A DNA stretch of 64,000 bases. Source: Escherichia phage vB-Eco-KMB43. How positions within the stretch are numbered: the stretch's first letter is position 1; every line of letters begins with the position of its first letter. This document shows, piece by piece, positions 6,268-54,503 of the stretch. The stretch is taken from sequence record OR525698.1. The stretch is one strand, 5' to 3'. A program made the position numbers and the translations under genes. The notes beneath the pieces were generated by a model. It saw only the letters and a program-made list of their open reading frames with translations. It had not been told where the DNA came from and made no database searches.

Positions 6268-9200
6268 TTAAAGCGCCTAGTGTAACTAGCTTGACAATAG
6301 AAAAATTGTCTGCTAATCAGGCGTATATCACATGGGATGACGTAGGCGAAAACTTCTTTTATTTTGTGGAGTTAGCCGAAACCAGAACACGAGACGGGGA
6401 GATCATCCCCGTCGATGAGTTAAGCTGGGTAAACCTGGGATATACTGCCGACCAAAACTGGTTTGAGGATAAAAACCTTTTTCCAGAATATTATTACAAA
6501 TTTCGTGTAGCAGTAGCCGCAGAAGGATTTGAACAAAGTAAATGGATTGAAACCGAAGAGTTTCAGACATTTAAAACAAACGCATATAATTTTTCTATGA
6601 TGCGAGAGTTCAACCTTGCAAACGAGTTTATAAAGGAAAAATTTACATACGATAATCGAGAGTATGTCAAGTTTAATACCGACCTTATTCAAGCATCATT
6701 GATGAAGGAAGATTTTGTCTTTAGTCCTGAATATGCAAACATGACAAATATCTCAAACTACATTGTAGTTGATGAGAACTTTCATGAAATACAGGATCAC
6801 ATAGAAAAAGTTTGTATTGATATAAACCGCACTATGTTAGCGGAAATGAACGGTGTTTTGTACCTTTTCGAACGGTTCCAGCCGATTGTGAAAGTGTCAA
6901 ATGATAAAGGTCAATCATGGAAAGCATACAAGGCTTTTAATGACCGTGTAGGAAATCCGGTTTCCCGCACATGCGTTTATCAGTCTAAAACCACTACTTA
7001 CGTTTTAGGATATGACCGAATCTTTTACGGACGACAAGCTAGCGATACTCGATGGAGCGCGGACGATGTTCGATTTAGTGATGATACGATCACTTTTGCA
7101 AAGGTTGGTGACGAGAACGATTTAGGCTTTGACGTTGAGGTCTTTGGTGTATTTTCCAGATTAACAGGGGACACCACAAAATACGCCGAAGCTATGGCGT
7201 GCAGTGATGACTATTTGTGGGTTGGTGCTAAAGATGTTATTCGCCGGATTCGTCTTAAGAATACTCCAGTTGATACCGTACAGGGTTCGCCTACGTTTGG
7301 AGAAAAAATATTCGATCCTGATGTTATCCGAGTAACAGGAAATGATAAAGCTGTCATTCAGAAAATGGATGTGATCGACGGTAAATTGCTTGTATTTGTT
7401 ACTGGTGAAGTTAAACAGCGTTATCAAGATCCAACCAAACCAGAAAACGTTGTTCCGTCAGATGATGCGGGTGTATACTTAATAGGGAGTGATGGTCTGT
7501 CTTTTCAGAGAGTATTTGGCAACACTCCGCAGGAAAGGGAATATATTCAGCATGGGTTCAGTAATATGTCAACCAATGGTGATGAGGTGTTCATAAGCCA
7601 TTATAATCATCACTTCGAAAGCATTTTACCTGATCCAGAAACTGCCGAGAAATATGAATTGGGCGAAGCTGTAAAATATTCTCAGGAGCCAACTTATCTA
7701 ACTGATAAGAAAATACATCAAACGACTTTCAGAGCAAGTTATGATGATTTGCGTATTTGGGAATTAGGACCGCAAGCGTATTATAATGAGGCTGATTATA
7801 CATGGATGCGTCGAAACGGTGTTCGTGTATGGATCACAAATGATAATCGCCCGTTGGTTGTTTATCCAGAGGTTATCTATACTCAAGAAGTTGATACTTC
7901 CGGCATTCTTGATAAAAACAGAATTAACCGTGAAGTTTATGATAAAGGGACCGTGACCTGTTATCTTAACAATGTTAAATTTGAAGGATTTAAACAATAT
8001 GCATCCGGTGTAATGTTCCATAAAAACACGGGAGAGATCATAGGATTCTATCAATTTAACTATCGCGTTCGTGATCAGGTTGGTGTATATTGGAAACCTA
8101 CAAATGTAGCATTTGTTGCTGAATTGCAAAATCAGGTTCGAGAGGTTCCCTGGGTTCCGGTTCACTACGATCGAGAACAAGACCCAGATTTGCGACCTTT
8201 ACTGAATAAGATGACACCTGATAGCTTTTTACTTGAGAACGAAAATTTCAGAAAATTCTCTGAATATTATCTGCAATTCTTAAGTGATGGTTCAGGAACA
8301 TATTATAATAAACTAAAAAATCTGATTAAAAACAAATATCCACGCGAGCAAGATGCATATGAGTATCTTTGGTCAGAGATGAACAAACGAAACATCTATG
8401 CAGATAAAAACAAGCGAGATGCGGTCGTAAGATTCTTTGAATCCCGCAAATCAGATTTTTATTCCACTAAGGGCGTGGAGGCTTCTTATAAGTTCTTGTT
8501 TAAGTTACTTTATAATGAAGATGTGGAAATTGAGGTTGAATCACAAGCCGGACTAGAGTATGATATTGTTGTTAGTTCAACGAACATTGACGAGGATATC
8601 GTAGGTCGCACGATTTATACCACGACCGGACGGGCTAACGTGACTTATCTTGAAAGGGAATATGAAGGTGGACGTCTACGCTGGCGAGTAACCATTCATA
8701 ACCTGATCGGGCGGTTCGAAGAAGGTCAAGTGATCAAATCAGAGAAAACAGCGTTTGAAGGGATGATCCTTGTTGGTGTACGTGGTAAAGAGTTGCTGAG
8801 TAGTTCAATCGACTATATCAACCGATCACGAAGCCAATACACCATGAAGATTAAAAGTGCATTGCCAGTTTCGCGCTATGCAAATGATGTAATGCGATTC
8901 GTTCATCCTGTCGGCTTTGGGTTTATCGGTGTTACCCTGCTTACGATGTTCATTAACAGCGGGTTGAGCATGAAGCACACCGAGACTATAATTCAATCTC
9001 TGAAAAATTATAAGTTTGACAGCGGATTGCCTAGCGTGTATCCTGATCGGGTGGCAGACCTTGATGTTGATGGAAATATTAAGATTGACCCACTAACAGG
9101 GAAACCATTATACTTAACGTCACCGACAATTGGCGAAGAGTTCCCTGTTCCTCCTGAATATGATCAGGAGAACAGCGAATTGTTCCACGGACTTAAAGCA

Positions 9201-16651: not shown

Positions 16652-18420
16652 TGATCGAACAATTAAACATTCGAAAGATCCCTAACGTCGATGGTGTCCC
16701 TGGAGAGGGACAACATTCTATTAGCTGGATTAAAAATGGTGAATGTCTAAGCGCAGCAACCACAGAAACAGGACACGAGGGGACGCTTAACCGCGCCCCT
16801 TATGCGATTCAAGAAAATATTGTTCGTTTGGATGAAAATTCTAAGACAACGGTAACAAAAGTTAACGAAGTTGTTACAGCAGTTAATGATATTAAAACTA
16901 CTTTAGGCGCGGTTGCTGATGGTAGTATTATTGATATTGTCAATCAAACTATTGCAAAGGTTGAGTCTGTAGAAGAAAATTTAGGAGAAACTTCAAGGAC
17001 ATTACAAACCACAGTAGATGAACTGGCGGAGACAGGAAAGAAAATTGGTGTTCGTCCGGCAGCAGATCCGAGTACACGAACAATATATGATGATATTTCT
17101 TTCATCAAACAAGAATTGGGCGCTTTCCCTAACTTCAATATCAACGGTTATCCAGATCCAGGTAGTTCCGGTTCCGGTATCAAATATCGAGTTATCCAGA
17201 ATACGGAAGCATTAAACAACCACGGTCAGCGAATCCGCCAACTAGAAAACGACTGGCAAGATTCTGACGTTGGAGAGCTAACAGAACAAGTTAACAAAAT
17301 GCGAAGCGAGCTAGGAGACACATCACTAGCAACACAGGACAATGTTTATCTTCGTCTTCGCACAAACACTCGCAATATCGCTAGTATATCAAACGAAGTT
17401 CAGGAAGTAAAGAAAGCGATTCTATTTGAATCAATTCCCGATATCGGGACTAAAGTAACTAAGCTACAATCTGATTATACACAGCTTAATGATGAAGTCA
17501 ACGGCTTTGACGCTGGTATCCGTCCTCGTTTAACTCTTCTGGAAAATAAGATCGGCAATCCTCAAGCCGCTGGAAGTATTGATTATCGATTGACCAATCA
17601 AGAACTGGAATTTGTAGATCTTAAATCTATTGTCGGTGTCAGTGGTGCTGATGGCCTACGTGGTGAGGTTGCACGAATCTCTAACACAGTTGGTACTGAC
17701 AGTGAGCGTCATACTATCGCAGGTCGTCTAAAAATTGTAGAAAACACACAGGGACGACTAGAAGCTAGCGTACAGGATATCGAGCAAATGATCGGCGATC
17801 GAGATTCCGGTCTAACCGCCGGGGTTATTAAGCTGTCAAGCGACATGTACGGCAATCCAGAAGGAAGCACGCAGCTTGAACAAGATGGGATCGTGAAAAC
17901 TGTTAAGGAATTGAGCACATCAAATGCAAGCAAGGTAACAGACGTTCCTGATGATGGTTTCCATTATCTACGTAAGCACGGGGAATGGGTTCAGGTCGCA
18001 TGGGCGGCTGGTGCATTTAAAAACACCGCTCAGATTGATATTACTCTCGACGGACAAGATCAATACAAAGGAATCCCGCTAAACGATATGACCGAAGAAG
18101 TTCCTGCGCGTGGAATGGTTAAGAGCGAATCTCTTGTTACGGTTAACGACAAAGGCTTATTCCGTTGTGTTTTCCGTTGTTCTGTAAATGCGGCACATAA
18201 CGCTACTTTCGTAGTCGGTATTGCTAAAAATGGTCAGATTGTACATGAGGTACGACATGGTCATTATGGAACTGATGATTTAATTAGCTATTCTACCAGT
18301 GCTTTCCTAAATATTGAAAAGGGCGACCGGATCGATATTCGCATTAAGGGCGTATCCGAAGAAGCATTAGCGCAACAGCTACAAATTAAAGAGTTCCTCT
18401 TTGGGATTTCTCCGGTATAA
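16651..18420 (+). CDS. wac: fibritin (whisker) Wac-like with C-terminal extension
   Basis: 589 aa; coiled-coil-like segmented sequence; foldon-like segment DGFHYLRKHGEWVQV followed by ~150 extra residues. Confidence 0.55.
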   Translation: MIEQLNIRKIPNVDGVPGEGQHSISWIKNGECLSAATTETGHEGTLNRAPYAIQENIVRLDENSKTTVTKVNEVVTAVNDIKTTLGAVADGSIIDIVNQTIAKVESVEENLGETSRTLQTTVDELAETGKKIGVRPAADPSTRTIYDDISFIKQELGAFPNFNINGYPDPGSSGSGIKYRVIQNTEALNNHGQRIRQLENDWQDSDVGELTEQVNKMRSELGDTSLATQDNVYLRLRTNTRNIASISNEVQEVKKAILFESIPDIGTKVTKLQSDYTQLNDEVNGFDAGIRPRLTLLENKIGNPQAAGSIDYRLTNQELEFVDLKSIVGVSGADGLRGEVARISNTVGTDSERHTIAGRLKIVENTQGRLEASVQDIEQMIGDRDSGLTAGVIKLSSDMYGNPEGSTQLEQDGIVKTVKELSTSNASKVTDVPDDGFHYLRKHGEWVQVAWAAGAFKNTAQIDITLDGQDQYKGIPLNDMTEEVPARGMVKSESLVTVNDKGLFRCVFRCSVNAAHNATFVVGIAKNGQIVHEVRHGHYGTDDLISYSTSAFLNIEKGDRIDIRIKGVSEEALAQQLQIKEFLFGISPV

Positions 18421-51245: not shown

Positions 51246-51425
51246 TTAGAACATTTTTGAAATCAATTCTGCTTTGATTTCGCAGAGAACATCTAAAGAT
51301 TTCTCGTCACCTGCTTTTGCTGCTTCTGCTTGCATTTTTGAAATGGCTTCAATGTCGGTGCAATTATAAGCCGCTTGAACTTTAGCGATTGCGATGATTG
51401 CCGATTCGATGGTTAAGTGTTTCAT
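51246..51425 (-). CDS. hypothetical small protein (59 aa)
   Basis: ATG 51425 directly downstream of cassette copy 2; not in ORF track. Confidence 0.4.
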   Translation of the reverse strand: MKHLTIESAIIAIAKVQAAYNCTDIEAISKMQAEAAKAGDEKSLDVLCEIKAELISKMF

Positions 51426-51495
51426 GTTTGATTCCCCTTTCGTTTCGGTATGTGTGTATTATAGGGGATCACCGATCCCCCTGTCAACAACTTTT
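51426..51495 (-). promoter_or_regulatory. promoter/5'UTR cassette copy 2 (PeSL-like)
   Basis: TTGACA (plus 51482-51487), palindromic spacer GGGGGATCGGTGATCCCC, TATAAT, conserved UTR. Confidence 0.65.
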
Positions 51496-51498
51496 TAG

Positions 51499-52014
51499 TT
51501 ATTTTTTTAATTGCTCATCTTGCAATAGGGCAATCACATGCTGGCGATGTTCTTCCGATTGAGGCACACCGAAAAAGTTTGTTTTGTAGAAATACTCTAA
51601 TCGGTCTTCTCGTGTGCTCTCTTCCATCATGATCGCGGGTAGTCCGAGATTTCGGAAACGTCGCTTTTCTGCTGGCGTAAAATCACTGTAATACAACATA
51701 GAATCATCATTACCAGCAATGCTAAACTCATCCTTCATAAAGGAGAATATTGCGTTTAAACGCTGTTTACCGTCCACGATTTCGATCTCATAGCGAGAGC
51801 CATCATCAATCTTAGCCATTGCGATAGCACCGACCGGAAAATCATTAATCAGGTTTTCGATAAACATACGTTTGTTTTCGGTGTCCCATACCAAAGGACG
51901 CTGATAATCTGGGTTCATGTTGATATAGCCATCTTCTAACCATGCTTCGTAAACAGAGATGACAAAGTTTTTAGTATTGGTATAGTAACGGCGTTTAGGC
52001 GTTAAACGGTTCAT
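51499..52014 (-). CDS. DUF262 / ParB-like nuclease-domain protein
   Basis: motifs DYQRPLVW and VDGKQR; ATG 52014 with AGGAGA SD, 1 nt after the upstream stop; ORF-track alternative start 52050. Confidence 0.55.
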   Translation of the reverse strand: MNRLTPKRRYYTNTKNFVISVYEAWLEDGYINMNPDYQRPLVWDTENKRMFIENLINDFPVGAIAMAKIDDGSRYEIEIVDGKQRLNAIFSFMKDEFSIAGNDDSMLYYSDFTPAEKRRFRNLGLPAIMMEESTREDRLEYFYKTNFFGVPQSEEHRQHVIALLQDEQLKK

Positions 52015-52015
52015 G

Positions 52016-52348
52016 TTATAGTCTCCTGAATGGATCATCACGTAAATCAATATCTTTTAAGAACTCATCCCATGAATGGCGGATATTGTTCTTAATTCTC
52101 CAGATAAGCGCAGGGATTGAACGCTCTCCCATCTGGAAGTATGGATCATATGATCCGTATGCCCAATATGCTACTACAATTCCACAATCAGCGCAATAGT
52201 ATTCTATTTCACTTGCTGGCGACCAAAGTCCATCAATATGATCGGTGATCTTGCTTTCGATGTTATGGCTATGACAATCAGGGCAACGGATGCAATGACC
52301 TTGTTTATCGTAATTTGACGTTAGCGAATACTTAAACAATCTCATCAT
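52016..52348 (-). CDS. zinc-ribbon protein (two CxxC pairs)
   Basis: 110 aa; CIRCPDC ... CADCG; start overlaps upstream stop (ATGA). Confidence 0.45.
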   Translation of the reverse strand: MMRLFKYSLTSNYDKQGHCIRCPDCHSHNIESKITDHIDGLWSPASEIEYYCADCGIVVAYWAYGSYDPYFQMGERSIPALIWRIKNNIRHSWDEFLKDIDLRDDPFRRL

Positions 52349-53061
52349 AGATCCTTATTTGCTTCAAATACTGCCTTTGCGAATCCTCGCGGGGTAAGTG
52401 ACCTGATAGTCTTTGTTTTCGTTCCTTTCCCGCCTAGCTTAGAATGCTGTTTACTGTACCCTTTATTAATCTGCAAAGGTTTCTTTTCTGGCATTATAAA
52501 GCCTTGTCCGGTCCATAAGCAAGTCTTTTTCGGGTACATATCACGGGCGGCGATATACTCAGGAAAAGTAGGATGTTTATCATCTTCCGGCAAATAACCG
52601 CCATATTCCCACGGATGGAACATATAATCAGGCTTACGCCACATGCTAGAGATAACGCTTACAGGATTCTCTATCATGTAGGGAACTCCTAGCCATTCAC
52701 CCAAATAAGCGGTTATTTTAGCTGCCCGTACATCATGAACTTGAATCAATGGTCCTTGCTCTCGTTTCTTTCGTTCAAAGTGTGCAGCGCCACTAACAGC
52801 TAAATTGGTGCACGGTGGGAATGCAAAGATAATATCCGGTTTCCCCCATTCAAGGTCCATTGCTCTTTCCAGCCAGTTCAAATCAATCCAGGTGTTTACA
52901 TAGGTAATGTTTGGATGTTCAAATCTGGTATTATACTTTTTGTATGTACCGTGGTCGGCGTCATCCGCATTAAAGCAGACTACCTTATGACCTGCTTTAG
53001 CCCATTCTAGCCCCATTATCCCCGATCCGTCAAAGTTACAGAATATTAATTTTTGTTTCAT
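52345..53061 (-). CDS. C5-cytosine methyltransferase-fold protein (atypical PCT motif)
   Basis: 238 aa; motif I-like FCNFDGSGIMG, motif IV-like DIIFAFPPCTNLAVSGA, motif VI-like MIENP; no obvious target-recognition domain. Confidence 0.5.
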   Translation of the reverse strand: MKQKLIFCNFDGSGIMGLEWAKAGHKVVCFNADDADHGTYKKYNTRFEHPNITYVNTWIDLNWLERAMDLEWGKPDIIFAFPPCTNLAVSGAAHFERKKREQGPLIQVHDVRAAKITAYLGEWLGVPYMIENPVSVISSMWRKPDYMFHPWEYGGYLPEDDKHPTFPEYIAARDMYPKKTCLWTGQGFIMPEKKPLQINKGYSKQHSKLGGKGTKTKTIRSLTPRGFAKAVFEANKDL

Positions 53062-53303
53062 ATACGCCCCTTTAATCCAACACAGATTTTAGAAGGTTCT
53101 TTGCCGTGCCACATTAAGTAAAGTCCATTAATGCGGCCTTGTTTTGTATATGATTCTTTTCTGATCTTCTTATAGTGTCGTGCTTCCTCAGCCGATTGTT
53201 TAGAATACCAATCATAAAGGAAGAGGCACAAAGGCCAACCATTAGCGGCCTTAATGCAGTTATTAAGAAATTCCTTATTGCGTTTAATTAATTTTCTTTT
53301 CAC
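53058..53303 (-). CDS. hypothetical basic protein (81 aa)
   Basis: ORF with overlapping start/stop in the operon. Confidence 0.4.
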   Translation of the reverse strand: MKRKLIKRNKEFLNNCIKAANGWPLCLFLYDWYSKQSAEEARHYKKIRKESYTKQGRINGLYLMWHGKEPSKICVGLKGRI

Positions 53304-53551
53304 GCTGCCCCCATTGGTTTGATAGTAACAGAATCTAAAAGACCTTTGTTAGCCAGTTCGCGGCAAGTTTTCAGATCCGCAACTTCCCAGCCAGCCGCAA
53401 TCAGGTTATCGATGAGGCTGTTAGCAACTTCTTCGCTCATGAAAGAGCACTGTTTGCCGATGGTGTAGCGTACACGCTGTAATTTCAGTTTACGGAAGCC
53501 TTTAACGTTCAGGTCTTTAGCGATTTTCTTTGCGGTTTCGATGTTAGCCAT
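53300..53551 (-). CDS. hypothetical protein (83 aa), first gene of the operon
   Basis: ATG directly downstream of cassette copy 3 (AGGAGAATCAAACAATG). Confidence 0.45.
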   Translation of the reverse strand: MANIETAKKIAKDLNVKGFRKLKLQRVRYTIGKQCSFMSEEVANSLIDNLIAAGWEVADLKTCRELANKGLLDSVTIKPMGAA

Positions 53552-53628
53552 TGTTTGATTCTCCTAAGTGGTATCTAGTCTTGATGGTTGTATTGTAGGG
53601 GAGTTATCCTCCCCTGTCAACACTTTTT
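53552..53628 (-). promoter_or_regulatory. promoter/5'UTR cassette copy 3 (PeSL-like)
   Basis: TTGACA (plus 53615-53620), palindromic spacer GGGGAGGATAACTCCCC, TACAAT, conserved UTR. Confidence 0.6.
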
Positions 53629-53802: not shown

Positions 53803-53873
53803 TTTGATTCTCCTATTTCGTTTCGGTATGTGTGTATTATAGGGGATCTCCCGATCCCCGTCAACAACTTTTT
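53803..53873 (-). promoter_or_regulatory. promoter/5'UTR cassette copy 4 (PeSL-like)
   Basis: TTGACG (plus 53860-53865), palindromic spacer GGGATCGGGAGATCCCC, TATAAT. Confidence 0.6.
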
Positions 53874-53880
53874 TTTAAAA

Positions 53881-54233: not shown

Positions 54234-54503
54234 TTAGATATTTTCAGAAATAAATTTTAAAACTTGACGTAAATGTTTCTCATCTTTGATAGTCGCCGGA
54301 AGTTCTTCTTTTACTTCCTGTGCAAGATAGATATTTCCGTTCCAAGTGAAAGATCCGTCTTCGTTTACGCGATAGCTGAACATCCACTCGCAATCATTTT
54401 CGATTTCATATACACACAGAAGAGTGTAATCTTCAAAGCTATTGATTTCAAGGTCGAAGCCGTGACGTTTTGCAAAGTTGGTAGTGGTTTTAGTCAGTGC
54501 CAT
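54234..54503 (-). CDS. hypothetical protein (89 aa)
   Basis: ORF downstream of cassette copy 6. Confidence 0.45.
   Translation of the reverse strand: MALTKTTTNFAKRHGFDLEINSFEDYTLLCVYEIENDCEWMFSYRVNEDGSFTWNGNIYLAQEVKEELPATIKDEKHLRQVLKFISENI

What the first reader, a model, noticed from the sequence alone, without database searches (positions are those of the whole stretch)
51499..53551. Translationally coupled five-gene operon: DUF262/ParB-like protein, zinc-ribbon protein and an atypical C5-methyltransferase-fold protein
Five minus-strand ORFs (83 aa, 81 aa, 238 aa, 110 aa, ~171 aa) have overlapping or 1-nt-separated stop/start codons (ATGA at 53300-53303, 53058-53061 and 52345-52348; TAA-C-ATG at 52014-52018) and are driven by one cassette promoter. 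The 238-aa protein has the C5-MTase motif arrangement (FCNFDGSGIMG; DIIFAFPPCTNLAVSGA; MIENP) but PCT instead of the canonical PCQ, and is too short to hold a normal target-recognition domain. The last gene carries DUF262-type motifs DYQRPLVW and DGKQR, the ParB-like N-terminal domain of GmrSD-family type IV restriction enzymes. A DUF262 protein coupled to a minimal cytosine-modifying enzyme and a zinc ribbon is not a described T4 module. It could be a DNA-modification or anti-restriction system, or a phage-borne system directed against competing phages.
Basis: partly seen in the sequence, partly recalled or inferred. Interest (0 to 1): 0.8.

Follow-up and report, generated by a model that had tools for sequence, protein, structure and literature searches.

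The report
Mosaic early operon with phage Dcm methylase
The five overlapping genes are real, but they are a patchwork of independently mobile accessory genes of an RB49-like phage, whose "atypical methyltransferase" belongs to an already studied family of small phage cytosine methylases, so no new multi-protein system is shown.

Summary
The window is an RB49-like coliphage (Krischvirus, about 98% identical). The five minus-strand ORFs correspond to RB49p190, p189.1, p189, p188 and p187. One junction is GTGA, not ATGA.

Both fold calls hold. The 238-aa protein models confidently, and its best structural matches are C5-cytosine methyltransferases. The 171-aa protein is a DUF262/ParB-N domain with no nuclease domain.

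The "new system" reading does not hold. The 238-aa protein is 55% identical, end to end, to the Dcm-like methyltransferase of phage KarlJaspers (Bas06). The same gene in the near-identical phage K42 was shown to put 5mC on DNA and to trigger retron Ec86. The family occurs in 1,520 phage genomes. In 79 viral loci with the methyltransferase and 53 with the short DUF262, all outside Krischvirus, none carries any other gene of the operon. Within Krischvirus, ORFs are inserted or deleted inside the operon.

Best reading: a mosaic early cassette with an ordinary phage Dcm-like methylase, probably anti-restriction. The zinc-ribbon and short DUF262 proteins are separate accessory genes of unknown role. 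Interest is low to moderate.

The parts
53592..53620 (-). PeSL-type early promoter upstream of the operon: TTGACA, a 17-nt spacer that forms the stem-loop GGGGAG/CTCCCC, then TACAAT.
   Evidence: 11 of 12 consensus positions. Exact match to the TTGACA-N17-TAYAAT pattern, which has 9 matches in the window against 1.5 expected. PeSL cassettes of RB49/phi1 are described in PMC2839356.
53300..53551 (-). Gene 1, 83 aa (= RB49p190). Function unknown.
   Evidence: ORF. phrog_14908 E 5e-59. No Pfam family above threshold. 100% identical to the RB49 copy.
53058..53303 (-). Gene 2, 81 aa, GTG start overlapping the stop of gene 1 as GTGA (= RB49p189.1). Function unknown. Dispensable in at least one relative.
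   Evidence: ORF. phrog_7065 E 7.5e-38. Almost precisely deleted in the Krischvirus-like contig L093.
52345..53061 (-). Gene 3, 238 aa (= RB49p189). Minimal Dcm-like SAM-dependent DNA C5-cytosine methyltransferase. Motif I is F10-x-G12-S13-G14. The catalytic Cys is C84 in P82-P83-C84-T85. Motif VI is E131-N132-P133. K178/K179 are basic residues. The tail carries LGGK..TK.IRSLTPRG.
52016..52348 (-). Gene 4, 110 aa (= RB49p188). Small zinc-ribbon protein (C19xxC22 ... C52xxC55, followed by a conserved WAYGSYxP). Function unknown.
   Evidence: phrog_2993 E 5e-34. Only weak zinc-ribbon Pfam hits, below threshold. Homologs in Nonagvirus JenP1 and Felixounavirus TP1 sit in unrelated contexts. The D37-H38 pair is not conserved, so it is not an HNH nuclease (by inspection).
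51499..52014 (-). Gene 5, 171 aa (= RB49p187). Stand-alone DUF262/ParB-N (GmrS-like) domain with invariant YQRxxVW, DGKQRL and NxxGVPQSEEH motifs. No nuclease domain.
51458..51487 (-). Next PeSL cassette, directly after the operon. Its stem-loop is the likely attenuator or terminator of the five-gene transcript, and its promoter serves the next gene (59 aa, 51246-51425).
   Evidence: 12 of 12 consensus positions. Sequence TTGACAGGGGGATCGGTGATCCCCTATAAT. Terminator activity of PeSL stem-loops was shown for RB49/phi1 in PMC2839356. It was not tested for this copy.

Best explanation
This is one PeSL-bounded early transcription unit in a hyperplastic region of an RB49-like phage. It carries five small accessory genes that were assembled by modular shuffling and do not form a conserved machine.

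Host sigma-70 RNA polymerase starts at the PeSL promoter (53620-53592). The five cistrons each have their own Shine-Dalgarno-like sequence. Their stops and starts overlap or nearly touch, so they are probably translated in a coupled manner. The next PeSL stem-loop attenuates the transcript. This step is inferred from the anatomy and from published PeSL work.

Gene 3 is a minimal SAM-dependent DNA cytosine-C5 methyltransferase of the phage Dcm-like family. Its fold, catalytic motifs and family membership are shown here. Activity has been shown only for the homolog from phage K42. It most likely methylates cytosines in phage DNA, and incidentally host DNA, at a small subset of sites to blunt restriction. 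As a side effect it can be sensed by retron Ec86/Eco1. The role and the target sequence are inferred, not shown.

Gene 5 is a stand-alone ParB-N/DUF262 nucleotide-binding domain without a nuclease. Gene 4 is a zinc ribbon. Genes 1 and 2 are ORFans. Each has its own distribution among phages and probably acts on its own. Most likely these are small host-takeover or counter-defence factors whose targets are unknown.
For: - Identity of the phage and genes: 97-99% identity to 55 Krischvirus genomes. RB49 annotation p187-p190.
- Methyltransferase fold and motifs.
- Family membership: phrog_757 E 8e-91. 55% full-length identity to Bas06 'Dcm-like C5 cytosine methyltransferase', a 711-bp gene. 711-bp homologs in T1-like contigs carry C82, E128, K175 and K176 at exactly the positions mutated in K42 Dcm.
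- Published activity: K42 Dcm raises 5mC on msDNA by LC-MS, a catalytic mutant is inactive, and escaper phages lose dcm (bioRxiv 10.1101/2023.08.16.553469). This is restated in PMC12916289.
- Independence of the genes: 0 of 79 methyltransferase loci (+-6 kb) and 0 of 53 short-DUF262 loci (+-10 kb) outside Krischvirus contain any other operon gene, by tblastn and by profile HMM. ST64B has the DUF262 gene but no methyltransferase or zinc ribbon anywhere in its 40 kb. Neighbours of the DUF262 and zinc-ribbon homologs differ by lineage.
- Plasticity inside Krischvirus: kaaroe has a 59-aa ORF inserted exactly at the zinc-ribbon/DUF262 junction, and ORF2 is deleted in L093.
- No bulk modification: TB34, whose operon coding sequence is identical to that of SAP and about 98% identical to the window, has no detectable modified nucleosides by HPLC/MS (PMC13390438).
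Against: - Tight translational coupling is what one would also expect of subunits made in fixed ratios. The five genes stay together in nearly all Krischvirus genomes, though these are about 98% identical, so this is weak evidence.
- DUF262 domains in defence systems sense modified DNA, including DNA methylated by a phage cytosine methylase (Dazbog). A functional link between a C5 methylase and a DUF262 protein is therefore biologically plausible.
- No activity, target sequence or partner has been measured for any of the five proteins of this phage.
- CCWGG, the site assumed for K42 Dcm, is about 3-fold depleted in the window. That fits poorly with full self-protection at that site.
Confidence: 0.72

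Rival explanations
1. One reading: the methyltransferase, zinc ribbon and DUF262 protein work together as one DNA-modification or anti-restriction system. For example, the zinc ribbon or the DUF262 protein could supply the DNA targeting that the enzyme, which lacks a normal target-recognition domain, cannot provide.
For: - Overlapping or adjacent stops and starts, and one promoter.
- The methyltransferase has only about 35 residues where other C5-MTases have a target-recognition domain of about 80 or more residues.
- The trio is kept in 55 Krischvirus genomes.
Against: - Homologs about 55-65% identical to the methyltransferase occur as single genes, with no zinc-ribbon or DUF262 neighbour, in 79 of 79 other viral loci.
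- The K42 enzyme is active when expressed alone from a plasmid.
- 53 of 53 short-DUF262 loci lack the methyltransferase and the zinc ribbon.
- kaaroe tolerates an extra ORF between genes 4 and 5.
Confidence: 0.1
2. The DUF262 protein is a GmrS-like sensor used in phage-versus-phage or counter-defence conflict. One version: it recognises modified DNA (hmC or glucosyl-hmC of T-even competitors) and recruits a separately encoded nuclease. Another version: it acts as a decoy that blocks host DUF262-based type IV, Dazbog or BrxU enzymes that would attack methylated phage DNA.
For: - A complete DUF262 core with all three invariant motifs.
- DUF262-only subunits exist in split defence systems, as shown by PADLOC hits to NsnA and PD-T4-2_A and by the GmrS1/GmrSD2 pair in PMC12373910.
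- The short family is found in T4-like genera such as Krischvirus, Pseudotevenvirus, Slopekvirus and Karamvirus. To judge from only 54 'Escherichia' records, nearly all Krischvirus, it is absent from Tequatrovirus and Mosigvirus.
- RB49-type DNA is unmodified (PMC13390438; PMC2993671), so such a phage would be immune to an activity directed at modified DNA.
Against: - No nuclease domain in the protein or in the operon.
- No conserved partner gene across lineages.
- No experiment addresses this.
- The distribution may simply follow phylogeny.
Confidence: 0.12
3. The 238-aa enzyme does not make plain 5-methylcytosine. Instead it installs another C5 group, or starts a post-replicative hypermodification pathway. 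This would explain the unexplained 5hmC and glucosyl-5hmC reported in Krischvirus SAP.
For: - Krischvirus lacks the dCMP hydroxymethylase and glucosyltransferase genes, yet SAP DNA was reported as modified (PMC13390438).
- SAP differs from TB34 by a 79-bp PeSL duplication directly downstream of this operon.
Against: - The five coding sequences are identical in SAP and in unmodified TB34.
- The K42 homolog yields 5mC.
- No TET-like or glycosyltransferase gene is seen in the operon.
- The duplication affects the promoter of the next cassette, not this operon.
Confidence: 0.04

Closest known systems
Phage Dcm-like C5-cytosine methyltransferase of Drexlerviridae (KarlJaspers/Bas06 bas06_0055; phage K42 Dcm, the trigger of retron Ec86/Eco1)
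   Same: - Same family: 55% identity over the full length, E 6e-92.
- Same size (236 against 238 aa).
- Same invariant residues. K42 C82/E128/K175/K176 correspond to C84/E131/K178/K179 here.
- Same PPCT motif and the same truncated target-recognition region.
   Different: - It sits in a T4-like myovirus inside a PeSL cassette, next to DUF262 and zinc-ribbon genes. The siphovirus copies have no such neighbours.
- Activity, target sequence and retron triggering are untested for the Krischvirus copy.
- The CCWGG specificity was assumed rather than mapped, even for K42.
Classical C5 DNA methyltransferases (M.HhaI, M.HaeIII, E. coli Dcm; DNMT3A/3B catalytic domain)
   Same: - Seven-stranded Rossmann-type catalytic domain.
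- Motif I FxGxG, motif IV Pro-Cys, motif VI ENx.
- DNMT3, which has the smallest target-recognition domain, is the best match.
   Different: - About 90 residues shorter than the bacterial enzymes.
- PCT instead of PCQ, ENP instead of ENV, and PKKT where motif VIII QxRxR would lie.
- No clear motif X.
- Below the Pfam PF00145 cut-off.
- No hit in a sequence search of the PDB.
GmrSD/BrxU/SspE family (DUF262 N-terminal NTPase domain plus DUF1524/HNH nuclease)
   Same: - The N-terminal DUF262 domain, with QR..W and DG(K/Q)QR motifs.
- ParB-N fold.
   Different: - The protein ends after the DUF262 core (171 aa).
- It has no nuclease domain, and no nuclease is found in the operon, so it cannot by itself be a type IV restriction enzyme.
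PeSL cassettes of RB49/phi1 (Arbiol et al. 2010, PMC2839356)
   Same: - Strong sigma-70 promoter with a G/C stem-loop in or next to the spacer.
- It flanks small nonessential genes in hyperplastic regions.
- Recombination between PeSLs inserts, deletes and duplicates cassettes. The 79-bp PeSL duplication in SAP is an example.
   Different: This cassette holds five cistrons rather than one or two. Two of the rearrangements seen (kaaroe, L093) lie inside the cassette, at gene junctions, rather than at PeSLs.

Membership tests
DNA cytosine-C5 methyltransferase (PF00145 superfamily) | Motif I, the SAM-binding FxGxG loop | tested here: met
   F10, G12, S13 and G14 are invariant in 44 homologs.
DNA cytosine-C5 methyltransferase (PF00145 superfamily) | Motif IV, the catalytic Pro-Cys | tested here: met
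   P82-P83-C84-T85 are invariant. Gln is replaced by Thr throughout the family.
DNA cytosine-C5 methyltransferase (PF00145 superfamily) | Motif VI, the ENV glutamate | tested here: met
   E131-N132-P133 are invariant.
DNA cytosine-C5 methyltransferase (PF00145 superfamily) | Score above the Pfam gathering threshold | tested here: not met
   15.7 bits against a 22-bit cut-off, covering only residues 10-100.
DNA cytosine-C5 methyltransferase (PF00145 superfamily) | Catalytic-domain fold | tested here: met
DNA cytosine-C5 methyltransferase (PF00145 superfamily) | Target-recognition domain of normal size between motifs VIII and IX | tested here: not met
   Only about 35 residues lie between strand 180-185 and R220-S-L-T-P-R-G.
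Phage Dcm-like mini-methyltransferase family (phrog_757; K42/Bas06 Dcm) | Full-length sequence homology to a characterised member | tested here: met
   phrog_757 E 8e-91. 55% identity, E 6e-92, to bas06_0055. The residues mutated in K42 Dcm are conserved.
Phage Dcm-like mini-methyltransferase family (phrog_757; K42/Bas06 Dcm) | 5mC-forming activity on DNA | not testable with these tools
   Shown only for K42 Dcm (LC-MS). TB34 virion DNA shows no detectable modified nucleoside. That is still compatible with rare sites: if the target were CCWGG, about 0.2% of cytosines would be methylated (29 sites in 64 kb).
GmrSD-type type IV restriction enzyme | N-terminal DUF262 domain with the DGQQR-type motif | tested here: met
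GmrSD-type type IV restriction enzyme | C-terminal DUF1524/HNH nuclease domain, or an adjacent GmrD subunit | tested here: not met
   The protein is 171 aa and consists of the DUF262 core only. No nuclease family is found in the other four proteins. The rest of the phage genome was not scanned.
Conserved multi-gene system (methyltransferase + zinc ribbon + DUF262) | The genes co-occur in unrelated genomes | tested here: not met
   0 of 79 and 0 of 53 loci outside Krischvirus. The whole ST64B genome is negative.
PeSL cassette (RB49/phi1 hyperplastic regions) | Near-consensus sigma-70 promoter with a G/C stem-loop, flanking nonessential genes | tested here: met
   Location between alt and gene 54 in RB49 coordinates. 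PMC2839356.

The most novel reading that the evidence does not exclude
In Krischvirus the short DUF262 protein, possibly with the zinc ribbon, has been recruited next to the Dcm-like methylase as its bodyguard. It would act as a reader or decoy for methylated DNA that shields the phage from host defences that sense cytosine methylation. These include DUF262-based type IV enzymes, Dazbog and retron Ec86. Some Krischvirus isolates are recorded on E. coli B hosts. From memory, not checked here beyond BL21(DE3), E. coli B carries retron Ec86 natively. Alternatively, the DUF262 protein could be a nuclease-less GmrS used against hmC-containing T-even competitors.
Probability: 0.1. Interest if true: 0.6.

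Novelty: new member of a known kind. Interest (0 to 1): 0.27.

Why it matters
As it stands, little changes. The cluster has been annotated in RB49 since its genome was published, and the methyltransferase belongs to a family with a characterised member.

Three open questions remain and are cheap to test.

1. How does a C5 methyltransferase with almost no target-recognition domain choose its sites? This family is present in about 3% of sequenced phages.
2. What does the conserved stand-alone DUF262 domain do? It is found in T4-like phages that lack hmC and in lambdoid prophages.
3. How do Dcm-carrying Krischviruses avoid retron Ec86 on E. coli B hosts?

Answers would bear on phage anti-restriction and on how defence systems sense methylation.

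Tried and rejected
- PDB sequence search with the 238-aa protein gave no hit, even at E 10. NCBIfam gave nothing for four of the five proteins.
- I asked whether the SAP (modified DNA) and TB34 (unmodified DNA) difference maps to this operon. The five coding sequences are identical. The only differences nearby are a 79-bp PeSL tandem duplication just downstream and two T-run indels in other intergenic promoters. I rejected this as an explanation for the operon's function.
- I asked whether the zinc ribbon could be an HNH nuclease partner of the DUF262 protein. The candidate Asp-His pair is not conserved in JenP1 or TP1 homologs, so I rejected this.
- I asked whether the gene upstream of DUF262 in RB16 and KP15 (about 109 aa, the same size as the zinc ribbon) is a zinc-ribbon homolog. 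It is not. It is a Cys-poor protein with a hydrophobic C-terminus.
- I asked whether RB16p029, annotated 'DNA methyltransferase' and 243 aa long, is the Dcm-like family. It is not. It carries an NPPF motif typical of amino-methyltransferases and gets no HMM hit. Only the first 50 kb of RB16 were read, so absence across the whole RB16 genome was not established.
- Motif statistics were tried as a clue to the enzyme's target. CCWGG and GGCC are depleted, but so are many unrelated 6-bp palindromes. The signal is general restriction-site avoidance and does not identify the target.
- The literature search for DUF262 together with phage cytosine methyltransferase found no paper.
Full report
**What the window is.** The 2.5 kb around the finding is 97-99% identical to 55 complete genomes of RB49-like coliphages (genus Krischvirus, including RB49, Phi1, JSE, GEC-3S and TB34). 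In RB49 coordinates the five ORFs are RB49p190, p189.1, p189 (annotated 'DNA methyltransferase'), p188 and p187. They lie between the alt ADP-ribosyltransferase gene and a long run of small hypothetical genes. This is one of the hyperplastic regions described for RB49 and phi1. Such regions are dense in PeSLs, which are promoter-early stem-loop cassettes (PMC2839356).

**Check of the observation.** All five minus-strand ORFs exist with the stated lengths. I read the junctions base by base.
- ATGA at 53061-53058 and at 52348-52345, as stated.
- TAA-C-ATG at 52018-52012, as stated.
- The first junction (53303-53300) is GTGA, not ATGA. ORF2 uses a GTG start, as the RB49 annotation also has it.

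Each start has a purine-rich Shine-Dalgarno-like stretch inside the 3' end of the preceding gene. A near-consensus sigma-70 promoter with a 6-bp G/C stem in its spacer lies at 53620-53592. A perfect-consensus copy at 51487-51458 follows the last gene. There is no strong promoter or terminator in between. The promoter pattern has 9 matches in the window against 1.5 expected. The ORFs are genuine genes: each matches a PHROG family at E between 5e-34 and 8e-91.

**The 238-aa protein.**
- Pfam DNA_methylase scores only 15.7 bits, below its 22-bit cut-off, and covers only the N-terminal 90 residues. A PDB sequence search finds nothing.
- An AlphaFold2 model built on 44 homologs is confident (pLDDT 90, pTM 0.89) and has the seven-stranded methyltransferase sheet.
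- In the alignment, F10/G12/S13/G14 (motif I), P82-P83-C84-T85 (motif IV), E131-N132-P133 (motif VI) and the C-terminal LGGK..TK.IRSLTPRG block are invariant.
- Only about 35 residues separate the last core strand from the motif-IX-like RSLTPRG.

**These features are not peculiar to this phage.**
- The protein belongs to a very large family of 220-260-aa proteins. It has 7,314 hits in the 5.8-billion-sequence search and 1,153 clusters at 50% identity. Homologs occur in 1,520 of 50,697 phage genomes, including Drexlerviridae, Dhillonvirus, Jerseyvirus and Vequintavirinae, where they are usually annotated as C5 methylase or Dcm.
- One member has been studied. In phage K42, which is 95.4% identical to KarlJaspers/Bas06, a 711-bp dcm gene is lost or silenced in all mutants that escape retron Ec86. 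Expressing it alone is toxic only when the retron is present. It raises 5mC on the retron msDNA by LC-MS. A C82A/E128A/K175A/K176A mutant is inactive (bioRxiv 10.1101/2023.08.16.553469). The conclusion is repeated in PMC12916289.
- I fetched Bas06. Its bas06_0055 ('Dcm-like C5 cytosine methyltransferase', 711 bp) is 55% identical to the window protein over the full length, E 6e-92.
- The four residues mutated in K42 correspond to the invariant C84, E131, K178 and K179 here.
- Gene 3 is thus a new member of a known, experimentally supported family.
- The target sequence of this family is not settled. The K42 authors assumed CCWGG by analogy with host Dcm and showed only that changing that site in the msDNA abolishes defence.

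**Is it a system?** I tested co-occurrence in both directions.
- Of 79 viral loci outside Krischvirus that carry the methyltransferase (+-6 kb), none contains a homolog of the zinc ribbon, the DUF262 protein, ORF1 or ORF2, by tblastn or by profile HMM. The neighbourhoods differ with the phage group.
- Of 53 viral loci outside Krischvirus that carry the short DUF262 protein (+-10 kb), none contains the methyltransferase or the zinc ribbon.
- The short DUF262 family (35-39% identity) sits among unrelated genes in RB16, KP15 and the temperate Salmonella phage ST64B. The complete ST64B genome has no methyltransferase or zinc-ribbon homolog.
- Zinc-ribbon homologs occur in Nonagvirus and Felixounavirus, next to nucleotide-metabolism or ORFan genes.
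- Within Krischvirus the operon is plastic. Phage kaaroe has a 173-bp insertion encoding a 59-aa ORF exactly at the zinc-ribbon/DUF262 junction. An IMG/VR Krischvirus-like contig has lost ORF2.

The association of the three genes is therefore lineage-specific. The usual comparative signature of a functional system is absent.

**Most likely mechanism.**
- Shown here: the operon anatomy, the folds, the catalytic motifs and the family membership.
- Inferred from published work on close relatives: early transcription from the PeSL promoter with attenuation at the next PeSL, and SAM-dependent C5 methylation of DNA by gene 3.
- Inferred only: that methylation serves anti-restriction, and that genes 1, 2, 4 and 5 act independently.

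TB34 carries the same five coding sequences as SAP and is about 98% identical to the window. It shows no detectable modified nucleosides by HPLC/MS (PMC13390438). The enzyme therefore does not bulk-modify the genome. If CCWGG were the target, only about 0.2% of cytosines would be methylated (29 sites in 64 kb), which could escape detection.

**Rivals.**
- A cooperative methyltransferase, zinc-ribbon and DUF262 system remains possible. It rests only on operon packing, and I give it about 0.1.
- A conflict role for the DUF262 protein is attractive. It could be a nuclease-less GmrS-like sensor directed at hmC-containing competitors, or a decoy against host DUF262 enzymes. DUF262 proteins sense modified DNA: Dazbog is triggered by a phage cytosine methylase. 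The short family also appears confined to T4-like genera without hmC. No evidence bears on it directly, so I give it about 0.12.
- A role in the unexplained hmC and glucosyl-hmC of Krischvirus SAP is unlikely (about 0.04), because SAP and unmodified TB34 have identical operon coding sequences.

**Verdict.** The interpretation as a novel coupled system is not supported. The cluster is a mosaic PeSL cassette containing a member of a known phage Dcm-like methyltransferase family and a stand-alone DUF262 domain of unknown role. Interest is low to moderate.

Noticed in passing
whole window (1-64000): Strong avoidance of restriction-type palindromes. GAATTC, AAGCTT, GGATCC, ACCGGT, AGCGCT, CCGCGG and CAGCTG each occur 0 times, against 19-38 expected (both strands, Markov model). 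TCCGGA occurs 2 times against 58 expected. GGCC is at 0.30x and CCWGG at 0.35x of expectation. This fits a phage with unmodified DNA that relies on site avoidance. It argues against full self-protection at CCWGG by the phage methylase.
   Followed up: partly
L003 (SAP, OZ034687) about 1128-1290, against L004 (TB34, OX001802) 1128-1208; equivalent to window about 51430-51510: SAP was reported with hmC and glucosyl-hmC DNA, and TB34 with canonical C. In this region they differ by a 79-bp tandem duplication. It covers the PeSL intergenic region plus the last 13 nt of the DUF262 gene, directly downstream of the operon. They also differ by two single-T indels just upstream of the -35 boxes of two other PeSLs. 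The five operon coding sequences are identical. The published SNP analysis reported no leads (PMC13390438).
   Followed up: partly
window 54234-54503 (-), 89 aa (= RB49p194, phrog_6147): This ORFan lies two cassettes upstream of the operon. It has homologs of 46-65% identity in 20 T1-like viral loci, on the same strand and 1-2.5 kb upstream of their Dcm-like gene. It is the only gene seen near the methyltransferase in two unrelated phage groups. This may be a remnant of a block transfer.
   Followed up: partly
L002 (kaaroe, MN850574) 2213-2392; L093 (IMG/VR 3300045988_033703) about 8955-8970: Rearrangements inside the operon in close relatives. In kaaroe a 59-aa ORF is inserted exactly at the TAA-C-ATG junction between the zinc-ribbon and DUF262 genes. 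In L093, ORF2 is almost precisely deleted.
   Followed up: yes
window 53803-53880: The window lacks RB49 ORF192 (158 aa in RB49, between p191 and p193) and has a single PeSL there. This is the phi1-type arrangement used as the worked example of PeSL-mediated excision in PMC2839356.
   Followed up: partly
window 53300-53551 (-), ORF1: The 83-aa ORF1 gives a weak PADLOC match (E 2.6e-5) to residues 722-785 of the UG35 defence-associated reverse transcriptase model. It has no Pfam support. This may be chance.
   Followed up: no
L149 (RB16, NC_014467) 16840-17571: RB16 carries the short DUF262 gene. It also encodes a 243-aa 'DNA methyltransferase' of similar size, but that protein is an NPPF-motif amino-methyltransferase unrelated to the Dcm-like family.
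   Followed up: yes
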